Shown piece after piece: positions 3,441 to 19,170 of a stretch of 32,407 bases of DNA. Position 1 is the first letter of the stretch. Every line of letters begins with the position of its first letter. Under the pieces are notes generated by a model. The model saw nothing but the letters and a program-made list of their open reading frames with translations, made no database searches and was not told where the DNA came from. The translations under genes and the position numbers were made by a program. Source of the DNA: Eledone cirrhosa (lineage: Eukaryota); contig CAXHJY010000813.1 of assembly GCA_964016885.1 (NCBI GenBank), forward strand, positions 1 through 32,407. The letters are read 5' to 3'.

Positions 3441-3970
3441 CTTTTTAGTAATTAAAGCGGCCATATCCGGCCAGAATTCTCTCACTTCTTTTTATTCAAA
3501 CCGGCCATAACCAGCTGTCCATACTTATATTAAGATATTATTCTCAAAATAAATAATATCAAAATCTCGTAGATTCGATATTATATGAGATAAGTATGTA
3601 AGATAAAGCCTTTACCACAAAAATACAATAGTAAATATAGAATAATTGTTTCTACTTTTGGCACAAGGCCAGCAATTATCCCAGTGTATTAATGGAGGTT
3701 AACTTTGCCTTTCATCCTTCCGGGATCGATAGAATAAAGTACCAGTAATGCATTGGTTAATTGCTGGCCTTGTGCCAAAAGTAGAAACAATTAATGACAC
3801 TTTATTTTATCGACCCCGTAAGGATGAAAGGCAAAGTTAACCTCGGCGGGATTTGAACTCAGACCATAAAGGGCCGTAACTCTTTGCTGCAAAGCATGGC
3901 GTCCGACCTTCTACCGATACTGCCAATACACCGCAGTAAATATCGAATAATGTCAATTTTAAAGGGTTAA
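3437..3970. mobile_element. piggyBac-type (TTAA) MITE interrupted by SINE insertions
   Basis: Imperfect TIRs TTAACTTTTTA ... TAAAGGGTTAA with TTAA at both ends. Contains the SINE at 3647-3934. Confidence 0.55.
3647..3934 (-). mobile_element. tRNA-headed SINE (family S2) with 17 bp TSD and an internal inverted S2 fragment (3696-3795, +)
   Basis: Minus-strand A-box TGGCAGTATCGG and B-box GAGTTCAAATCCC. TSD AGTAAATAT(A/C)GAATAAT at 3630-3646 and 3935-3951. Confidence 0.85.
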
Positions 3971-7401: not shown

Positions 7402-7743
7402 ACTATTTATAATTATGTATATAGTATAAACAACTATAAACAGGAAGGTCAGTAATTTCTTAATTGCCTTATTACCAGTAAGAGAAATAGCTCAATGTAT
7501 GAACATCAGTTGTTTTACAGAGCAGTTATTATATATATATATATTTATATGTATATATGTACGTATATACATATATATATATATATCTGTGTGTGTGTAT
7601 GTATATATATATATATAAATATATATATATGTATATATATGTGTATATATATATATATATTATATATATATATATACATATATATACATATATATTTATT
7701 TATATATATATACATACACACATATATATATATATATAAATAC

Positions 7744-7806
<63 letters not shown>

Positions 7807-8127
7807 TTGATAAAAATGTAAATACCTATATATGAGTGTGAGTATGCCTGTGTGAGTATGCCTGTGTGAGTGTGAGTGTATTCAAACATAGATATATACA
7901 CATATTTCTCTTCCAATATCTATATATGATATTGTTGCAAAACTTATCGATACCATCTCTGTATGAAATGAGCAACTCAGTTCTATATCACTTGTTTCTA
8001 TCAATATCGATCTATTTGAATAGATCAATTATCAAATTATTATGCACCGATTAATTGACTGTCTGATCTGTTGCACGATAGTTCCAGCAACATCGATCCG
8101 TACACACATGAACTCACATAAATTCAT

Positions 8128-9480
<1,353 letters not shown>

Positions 9481-9868: not shown

Positions 9869-10102
9869 TAATACAAGACTAGAACTGTTTCCTTCGAAGG
9901 AAATCATCAGGAAATCTTTCCTATGTTGTTCCTGTGTACCTTAATTACTATGTTACCTGTAAACCTGGGATACACACATACACACGTATATATATATGTA
10001 TATATAAGTTTATCCCGGGTTCAATCATGGGGTAACCACAGTAAGTAAGGTACTCAAGACATTGCAGAGTATAAATGAAAGAGTTCTAGGCATGGAGAAG
10101 CC

Positions 10103-10173
<71 letters not shown>

Positions 10174-10214
10174 GAGAGTAAAACAAAGAATCCTTTAATA
10201 CATCAAAAGTTTTT

Positions 10215-10260
10215 ATTAGCCGACAATGTTTCGTCCTATTAAGGACTCATCAGGGCAATC
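10215..10260 (-). ncRNA. Minimal type I hammerhead ribozyme
   Basis: Minus strand: GATTGCC-CTGATGA-GTCCT-TAAT-AGGAC-GAAA-C-ATT-G-TC-GGCTAAT. Intact core, perfect 5 bp stem II, GUC cleavage triplet, stem I GCC/GGC. Confidence 0.75.
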
Positions 10261-10311
10261 AAAAAAACAAGAGGTAATATCGGCAGATACAGCCAGAAAC
10301 TCACTTGAGCT

Positions 10312-10360
<49 letters not shown>

Positions 10361-10596
10361 AAGCTCAAGTGTTTTTGTATGACCCATATATATAATGAAC
10401 ATATTCATTCAAGTTGTACAAATGTAAAATGTTGAATCCTATATAAAACTCCAATCAAGGTTTTAAGGAGGAATATCACATTTTTATAGATTTTACTTAG
10501 GTTTCACGTTTTCCATTTTTTTTTGTAATCCTTTTAGTAAAAATATGGAATTAAATTCAAATACAGATTGAAAACGTATGAAAAACTATTAAATGT

Positions 10597-18868: not shown

Positions 18869-18929
<61 letters not shown>

Positions 18930-18980
18930 GTATAAATATTAATAAAATAGATGTTCTTTTGATCAATTATGTCATGTATC

Positions 18981-19043
18981 ATTATATTTTGTCTGATGAG
19001 GACGTACTGTTGTACATCCGAAATATGTATAATAAAATGTAAT
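18981..19043 (+). ncRNA. Minimal type I hammerhead ribozyme (Penelope-like architecture)
   Basis: ATTATATTTTGT-CTGATGA(18993-18999)-GGACGTAC-TGTT-GTACATCC-GAAA-T-ATGT-A-TA-ATAAAATGTAAT. Stem I 12 bp with G.U pairs, stem II 7/8 bp, 1 bp stem III with a tetraloop, AUA triplet (cut after 19031). Confidence 0.8.
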
Positions 19044-19170
19044 TGATAAAAAAAACATCTATTTTATTAATATTTGTATTTTAATATTAATAACTCCGGA
19101 AAATTATTTTTCCGTAGAGTTGGTTTCAATCGACTGTAAAACTCATTCTTTGACATAATCATTGAATATC

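What the first reader, a model, noticed from the sequence alone, without database searches (positions are those of the whole stretch)
10171..10315. Third hammerhead, unrelated in sequence, in another (TA)n-bounded island (minus strand)
Seen: CUGAUGA-GUCCU/AGGAC-GAAAC-AUU-GUC with stem I GCC/GGC. Its stems share no sequence with the other two hammerheads, so this looks like an independent family using the same catalytic core. Loop III is only 3 nt.
Basis: partly seen in the sequence, partly recalled or inferred. Interest (0 to 1): 0.75.

Follow-up and report, generated by a model that had tools for sequence, protein, structure and literature searches.

The report
Hammerhead in a truncated Penelope retrotransposon
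This hammerhead ribozyme motif is real, but it sits in the 135-base leftover end of a known kind of jumping gene (a Hydra-type Penelope-like element with over 1,000 copies in this genome), and the less ordinary point is a small repeated RNA hairpin that likely tells the element's copying enzyme where to start.

Summary
The motif is real: a complete type I hammerhead at 10256-10219 (minus), cut site 10222/10221. It is not a stand-alone ribozyme family. Window 10302-10169 is the last 135 bp of a ~4.8-kb Penelope-like retrotransposon, whose 897-aa protein has a telomerase-like RT, a weakly matching C-terminal GIY-YIG domain and the Hydra-clade motifs. The 36-nt ribozyme occurs 1,033 times exactly. 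The core is conserved in subfamilies down to 65% protein identity, with one compensatory stem I pair. The 'loop III' is a near-palindrome predicted to need a dimer. No RNA data were available, and 5' ends are not enriched at the cut site. Hydra elements with hammerheads and (TA)n targeting are published. The less ordinary part: 114 of 118 copy ends fall at two sites, each about 5 nt before a duplicated bulged hairpin. The same hairpin is visible in published coral and sea-cucumber Hydra consensi, and is likely the signal that places reverse-transcription starts. I found no paper describing it, but this scan noted it before on another piece of the same genome (e1-9869566). Verdict: new member of a known kind.

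The parts
10169..10302 (-). 5'-truncated 3' end (pLTR positions 54-188) of a Hydra-clade Penelope-like retrotransposon; ends at the first of the family's two 3' end sites
   Evidence: 135 bp, 98.5% identical to both pLTRs of full-length copy L031; same 3' end as 34 of 49 sampled arms
10219..10256 (-). Type I hammerhead ribozyme motif: 3-bp stem I, 5-bp stem II, near-palindromic helix III segment
   Evidence: 98.4% of 250 cells paired in 25 sequences, one compensatory pair
10221..10222 (-). Predicted self-cleavage site, 3' of C17 (GUC)
   Evidence: position by hammerhead numbering; residue 17 is C, U or A in all 25 aligned rows; cleavage not tested
10223..10229 (-). ACA-U-UGU segment, predicted to pair with the same segment of a second copy (dimeric helix III)
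   Evidence: 3 flanking pairs invariant in 25 of 25 rows while the centre base is U, A or C; monomer stem III probability 0.0003
10110..10170 (.). (TA)n target microsatellite at the 3' junction (2-nt overlap with the element end)
   Evidence: sequence; most sampled copies also run into (TA)n
10302..10316 (.). 15-bp inverted copy of the flank at 10357-10371, joined to the element's 5' end with 1 shared base; not part of the element
10317..10371 (.). (TA)n loop (40 nt) and the original flank sequence that is copied in inverted form

Best explanation
The island is the last 135 bases of a Hydra-clade Penelope-like retrotransposon lying in a (TA)n repeat, likely left by reverse transcription that stopped early, and its hammerhead is the element's terminal-repeat ribozyme, predicted to cut well only as a dimer or with help from the element's protein. 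Shown: sequence identity to full-length elements, the RT and Hydra motifs of their protein, conservation of the ribozyme, and two discrete 3' end sites each about 5 nt before a bulged hairpin. Inferred steps: (1) the GIY-YIG domain cuts (TA)n; (2) the protein docks on a GGCUC/GAGCU hairpin with a 2-nt bulge in the RNA downstream of the ribozyme, and the cut TA end primes at a short AU patch just 5' of it; (3) two hairpins give two start sites, hence the ~100-nt 'tail', and when both DNA strands prime, one at each site, an inverted two-armed insertion results; (4) here only the site-1 arm was made, stopped after 135 nt, and was joined to the other DNA end, which had likely folded back on its TA repeat and copied 14 nt of flank; (5) this copy lacks the ORF and both hairpins and is likely inert. 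The ribozyme is under selection in the active lineage and most likely processes precursor RNA, but cut linear RNA does not appear to be the usual template.
For: 98.5% match to the pLTRs of L031; direct repeats 4,841 and 4,862 bp apart flank a 897-aa ORF in L031 and L032. AlphaFold model (pLDDT 82) matches telomerase RTs best: Foldseek E 4e-10, Z 17.3, rmsd 4.6, 367 aligned. C-terminal domain: Pfam GIY-YIG E 2e-4, 22.0 bits against a cut-off of 22.6. Hydra motifs present (against PMC8557442 section 11). Ribozyme 237-262 nt upstream of the ATG in 38 of 70 loci chosen by protein, not by ribozyme; the other 32 begin inside or 3' of it. Core identity 99.6/100/99.2/95.6% against flank 93.7/85.2/75.3/51.4% in four subfamily bins. 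114 of 118 arm ends at two sites in three subfamilies, tracking hairpin spacing. 15 of 15 classifiable two-armed insertions pair site 1 with site 2. Two internal start sites and a protein-assisted ribozyme were shown in vitro for a Poseidon element (PMC11167929).
Against: No cleavage or expression data. Clade placement rests on motifs and by-eye comparison with published sequences, not on a tree with named references. The GIY-YIG call is weak: below Pfam's cut-off, and no fold match under E 0.001 (best T4 EndoII, E 0.5). Hairpin covariation within this genome is weak (1 pair, 3 cells) and its descriptor was written after seeing the motif. It was not seen in 2 of the 6 published Hydra consensi. 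Ribozyme covariation is one pair, probably one or two events. The fold-back junction was detected as inverted flank in only this one of 49 arms and lies on a 32-kb unplaced contig, so an assembly artefact at that junction is not excluded.
Confidence: 0.88

Rival explanations
1. The island is an independent small ribozyme-bearing element (a retrozyme or mini-element) that spreads as its own ~145-nt unit.
For: It is a short TA-bounded island with an intact ribozyme; the genome does hold a separate 469-bp tandem repeat with its own hammerhead.
Against: The 5' ends of 49 sampled arms scatter from 12 to 4,805 nt upstream of the core, with no shared 5' end at this position. The sequence is part of a protein-coding element. 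No tandem array here, and no BLAST similarity between the 469-bp repeat and this element.
Confidence: 0.03
2. Same element, but the two 3' ends are set only by AU microhomology between the RNA and the (TA)n primer, or by DNA-level cutting; the hairpins are conserved for another reason (promoter, translation or RNA stability).
For: Every end site has a short TA-like patch. Covariation inside the genome is weak, so a DNA sequence motif is possible. Earlier work tied the tail to endonuclease recognition (as cited in PMC11167929).
Against: Other AU patches in the same region are hardly used (4 of 118 ends elsewhere). End spacing follows hairpin spacing (92, 100, 101 nt). The upper stem differs wholly in sequence between the two copies, the 18993 family and published Hydra elements yet still pairs.
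Confidence: 0.3
3. The ribozyme makes unit-length circular RNA, which is the real template; this would explain partial tandems and long copies ending at site 2, whose hairpin lies only at the 5' end of a single element.
For: Proposed in PMC4209133. No excess of 5' ends at the cut site (9 against 17 and 16) fits a ligated template. Long copies ending at site 2 exist (L031, L282, L285, L287, L289, L291).
Against: Full tandem copies exist as an alternative linear source (C1002 pair 5,095 bp apart). Uncut RNA explains the lack of cut-site ends equally well, and was the main substrate in vitro in PMC11167929. 5' end matched the 3' end site in only 2 of 9 hand-picked full-length copies.
Confidence: 0.25
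4. The motif is a catalytically dead relic kept only because the family is young.
For: The predicted monomer fold mispairs the core (-13.2 against -8.7 kcal/mol for the active fold); PLE ribozymes were weak in vitro.
Against: Majority differences from the young subfamily: 1 of 15 core sites against 140 of 294 flank sites in the 65-67% group (P 0.0009), 0 of 15 against 64 of 294 in the 73-79% group (P 0.025).
Confidence: 0.07

Closest known systems
Hydra-clade EN+ Penelope-like elements (Craig et al. 2021, PMC8557442; e.g. Hydra-1_Obim, Hydra-2_Amil, Hydra-1_Ajap)
   Same: Single ORF with RT and C-terminal GIY-YIG; RW(K/R), DKT, CxCx5C, CxxC and CxH motifs; hammerhead in the 3' repeat; (TA)n insertion; tandem and inverted structures; a short loop III also listed for Hydra-1_oBim (1 nt).
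   Different: Longer (4.8-kb unit against <3 kb) because of a ~140-aa disordered insert and a ~1.8-kb 3' UTR; tail ~100 nt rather than the 30-40 bp given for PLEs; over 1,000 copies; RWR for RWK. The bulged hairpin is not mentioned in that paper's main text.
PLE hammerheads with a small palindromic helix III (Cervera and de la Pena 2014, PMC4209133)
   Same: Type I, in the pLTR, mostly found as single truncated motifs, palindromic 15.2-16.2 segment, predicted dimer.
   Different: Stem II is 5 bp with no extra base between positions 9 and 10.1, unlike their minimal consensus; this particular sequence has not been assayed.
Poseidon element PAc of Anolis (Frangieh et al. 2024, PMC11167929)
   Same: Two internal start sites whose interval is the tail; both strands cut; AT-rich target; no trace of ends at the ribozyme cut site.
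   Different: [quoted passage not shown]
Non-LTR retrozymes (PMC7229834; bioRxiv 10.64898/2026.07.22.740005)
   Same: Type I hammerhead with weak helix III, PLE-related.
   Different: Those are non-coding tandem repeats of 150-450 bp; this is a solo truncated end of a coding element.

Membership tests
Type I hammerhead ribozyme | CUGANGA, GAAA and UH core with stems I and II | tested here: met
   RF00163 31.7 bits, E 1.7e-6, below gathering score 34
Type I hammerhead ribozyme | Helix III | tested here: inconclusive
   2 bp as monomer with probability 0.0003; modelled dimer -21.9 kcal/mol, close to two inactive monomers at -10.6 each; pairs invariant
Type I hammerhead ribozyme | Conservation and covariation across relatives | tested here: met
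   (one compensatory pair, 17 C-G against 8 U-A)
Type I hammerhead ribozyme | Self-cleavage | not testable with these tools
   needs an in vitro assay or RNA end reads
EN+ Penelope-like element | Single ORF with telomerase-like RT | tested here: met
   897 aa, YRDD at 360; best fold matches are telomerases
EN+ Penelope-like element | C-terminal GIY-YIG endonuclease | tested here: inconclusive
   Pfam PF01541 E 2e-4, 22.0 bits against cut-off 22.6; VY..YIG motif and conserved Y, G, K, H; top fold rows include GIY-YIG nucleases but at E 0.5 or worse. Likely met.
EN+ Penelope-like element | pLTRs, partial tandems, inverted 5'-truncated copies, one-sided tail | tested here: met
EN+ Penelope-like element | Hammerhead in the pLTR | tested here: met
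Hydra clade | RWK motif, DKG changed to DKT | tested here: met
   RWR at 38 and DKT at 129; RW(K/R) 112 of 121, DKT 112 of 121, DKG 0 of 121
Hydra clade | CxCx5C linker; CxxC and CxH around E and N; no CCHH | tested here: met
   CxCx5C at 748 (100 of 121), CxLCxxE at 846 (109 of 121), CxH at 874; only one Cys between the two GIY-YIG strands, read by eye
Hydra clade | Insertion into (TA)n | tested here: met
Hydra clade | Monophyly with named Hydra RTs | not tested
   no named reference proteins were available to the tools; by-eye motif agreement with Hydra-1_Obim, -2_Amil, -1_Ajap
Non-LTR retrozyme | Non-coding tandem repeat of 150-450 bp, one ribozyme per unit | tested here: not met
   solo fragment of a coding 4.8-kb element; scattered 5' ends

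The most novel reading that the evidence does not exclude
Hydra-clade Penelope elements carry a clade-wide, duplicated bulged RNA hairpin (4-5 bp GCUC/GAGC-type stem, 2-nt 3' bulge, variable upper stem) that acts as a ruler, fixing each of two reverse-transcription start sites about 5 nt upstream; a protein dimer bound to both primes the two cut DNA strands, which explains the tail and the one-tailed inverted insertions of PLEs.
Probability: 0.55. Interest if true: 0.62.

Novelty: new member of a known kind. Interest (0 to 1): 0.33.

Why it matters
The ribozyme itself adds one more member to a known class. What could matter is the mechanism it led to. How Penelope-like elements, the closest mobile relatives of telomerase, choose where to start copying is barely known, with one in vitro study. 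A short conserved hairpin at a fixed distance from both start sites, in an apparently recent family with intact ORFs, gives a direct test of RNA recognition and of the origin of the tail. The lack of copies starting at the cut site also narrows what the ribozyme can be for.

Tried and rejected
Whole-window Rfam scan: the 150 listed rows were microsatellite-driven miRNA-type hits; uninformative. Rfam on 8 other candidate stretches, including 18993: no hammerhead hit. Pfam and PDB sequence searches with the whole protein or its profile: nothing useful. RNA evidence: no RNA holder listed. Three runs of one sample and unknown kind were laid: contigs only, one low-depth joint, no piece across the window's 5' junction; no conclusion on expression, splicing or the junction. 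An upstream GCCGAUA segment as a competing fold: pairing probability 0.015-0.09, rejected. Excess of 5' ends at the cut site: not found. 5' ends of ORF-bearing copies near the hairpins: 5 and 3 of 32 within 10 nt, against about 1.5 each expected; post hoc and noisy. 5'/3' end matching in 10 hand-picked copies, 9 scorable: 2 same site, 7 other site; not significant. ORF for the 18993 family: none in 12 loci and no read-through match. Sequence and place look-ups in the scan's notes gave nothing. AATAAA at 10217 as a poly(A) signal: absent from the 65-67% subfamily, not pursued.

Full report
Observation. The motif is present as described on the minus strand: a 3-bp stem I, CUGAUGA, a 5-bp stem II with a 4-nt loop, GAAA, C-AUU-G, then UC, with the predicted cut between 10222 and 10221. 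Rfam's type I model matches at 31.7 bits, E 1.7e-6, under its gathering score of 34. A loose descriptor hit twice in the window and in 2 of 200 shuffles. The whole 145 nt is not unusually stable (z -0.46).

What it belongs to. A DNA search of the window's genome (3.0 Gb; organism not determined here) gave 1,445 candidates, of which 40 were scored: the window itself and 39 at 98% identity. The 36-nt ribozyme occurs exactly 1,033 times, the reversed control 0 times. Two same-strand pairs, 4,841 and 4,862 bp apart, flank one long ORF. Window 10302-10169 is 98.5% identical over 135 bp to both terminal repeats, and the window holds no part of the ORF. In 41 loci (the window and 40 stretches taken in order along contig C1), the 49 ribozyme-bearing arms have 5' ends from 12 to 4,805 nt upstream of the core. 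The island is thus one of many 5'-truncated copies.

The protein. It has 316 relatives at E 0.001 or better, none usefully named; 120 were listed and used. The AlphaFold model (mean pLDDT 82, residues 489-627 disordered) matches telomerase RTs best. The C-terminal 156 aa match Pfam GIY-YIG just under the cut-off; the fold search for that domain was weak, with GIY-YIG nucleases among the top rows at E 0.5 or worse. The motifs that PMC8557442 uses to define the Hydra clade are present: RW(K/R), DKT in place of DKG, CxCx5C, CxxC and CxH. That paper also reports hammerheads in all Hydra elements and (TA)n insertion for almost all. I did not build a tree with named references.

Is the ribozyme under selection? 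I chose 70 of 150 loci by protein match, not by ribozyme: the best 30 and 40 hand-picked more divergent ones. 38 carry the ribozyme 237-262 nt before the ATG; 32 start inside or after it. Core identity stays at 96-100% while flank identity falls to 51%. In 25 distinct rows 98.4% of cells pair; the stem I pair next to the core switches C-G to U-A in 8 rows; the three helix III pairs never vary while the centre base is U, A or C. This is one covarying pair among related sequences, so it is modest evidence. A 1-nt loop cannot close a 3-bp stem, so the pattern points to a dimer. As a monomer the active fold is 4.5 kcal/mol worse than a mispaired fold; a modelled dimer (-21.9) is about level with two inactive monomers. 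This fits the published low activity of single PLE ribozymes (PMC4209133) and the protein-assisted cleavage seen for PAc (PMC11167929).

Does cut RNA serve as template? Matched patterns for 5' truncation gave 9 true truncations of 13 hits at the cut site, 17 of 20 fetched (22 hits) 6 nt downstream, and 16 of 16 five nt upstream. There is no excess at the cut. This goes against the idea in scan notes e1-8622537 and e1-9504305 for this family, and agrees with PMC11167929. It cannot separate uncut from re-ligated circular template.

The two 3' ends. In three subfamilies 114 of 118 arm ends fall at two sites (50 of 51, 35 of 36, 29 of 31; 4 read-through arms left out; the queries for the two older subfamilies favoured tailed copies). 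Each site lies 1-7 nt before a hairpin with a GGCUC/GAGCU stem, a 2-nt bulge and a short upper stem; by my reading all are compatible with 5 nt once TA overlap is allowed for. Hairpin spacing (92, 100, 101 nt) tracks tail length. A descriptor written after the fact hits the 4,841-nt unit exactly twice on the sense strand and once on the other, against 0.08 per shuffled unit. Two checks are more independent. The sequence-unrelated 18993 family shows an ACUC/GAGU version 7 nt after its first end in 11 of 12 tailed arms. And by eye the motif is clear at or beside the 3' end in 3 of the 6 published Hydra consensi (Hydra-2_Amil, Hydra-2_Ajap, twice in Hydra-1_Ajap), variant in Hydra-1_Crog, and not seen in Hydra-1_Obim or Hydra-1_Amil. 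Covariation inside this genome is weak. Of 41 loci, 16 have two opposed arms; 15 of 15 classifiable ones pair a site-1 with a site-2 end. I read this as two primings, one per DNA strand and one per hairpin; the twin-priming reading is taken from scan note e1-9597315.

This copy. It ends at site 1 and so lacks both hairpins and the ORF. Its 5' junction carries a 15-bp inverted copy of the flank across a 40-nt TA loop, sharing one base with the element; fold-back of the TA end is my inference, and an assembly artefact is not excluded.

Novelty. The ribozyme, the clade and the TA target are published. The hairpin is not mentioned in the main text of PMC8557442 (0 hits for hairpin or stem-loop) or the text supplements of PMC11167929, and five library searches listed no paper whose title or abstract start describes it; subscription papers and figures are not covered. 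I reached it before looking at the scan's notes, but note e1-9869566 reports the same on another piece of this genome; that is a repeat, not support.

Papers seen. PMC8557442: passages, section 11, supplement hits and parts 52-53. PMC4209133: parts 1-2 of 4. PMC11167929: parts 1-2 of 4 and a supplement search. bioRxiv 10.64898/2026.07.22.740005: part 1 of 5. PMC7229834: passages. Hammerhead numbering is as in PMC4209133 and from recall.

Verdict. Real, ordinary in kind, with one testable mechanistic lead. Interest 0.33.

Noticed in passing
window 18925-19170 (+): Second hammerhead family (1,627 candidates) with the same design: TA flanks, two 3' ends, bulged hairpin at 19093, short inverted arm at its 5' side. 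No ORF found in 12 loci; may be non-autonomous.
   Followed up: partly
window 7415-7530 (-): TA-bounded island that starts just before a GCUC/GAGC bulged hairpin (7523) and resembles a tail-only piece of another Hydra-like family.
   Followed up: no
window 7312 (-), 19353 (-), 24773 (+): Three copies of a short repeat that holds an ACUC/GAGU bulged hairpin, without a hammerhead found nearby; possibly a passenger of the same enzyme.
   Followed up: no
window 25317 (-): Degenerate minimal hammerhead-like core with an extra base before stem II; a similar intact one lies upstream in L165.
   Followed up: no
L099, L100, L102 (G000 C1): A 469-bp tandem repeat with a type I hammerhead per unit, compensatory stem II variants, inverted ends and TA flanks: a non-LTR retrozyme-like family. 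A loose core pattern has 4,717 matches genome-wide.
   Followed up: partly
window 9880-9910 (-): CUGAUGA followed by a palindromic hairpin ending in GAAAC, but no stem I; probably not a ribozyme.
   Followed up: partly
window 3698-3841: Long imperfect inverted repeat; related short motifs at 1571, 6206 and 23788. Looks like another dispersed repeat.
   Followed up: no
L031 5' flank (about 7489-8226): A 309-bp inverted duplication in the DNA just upstream of the full-length element, reminiscent of the window's fold-back junction.
   Followed up: no
L031 ORF, residues 489-627: A ~140-aa disordered insert absent from most of the 120 listed relatives; open-frame lengths vary from about 800 to 970 aa among copies.
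   Followed up: no
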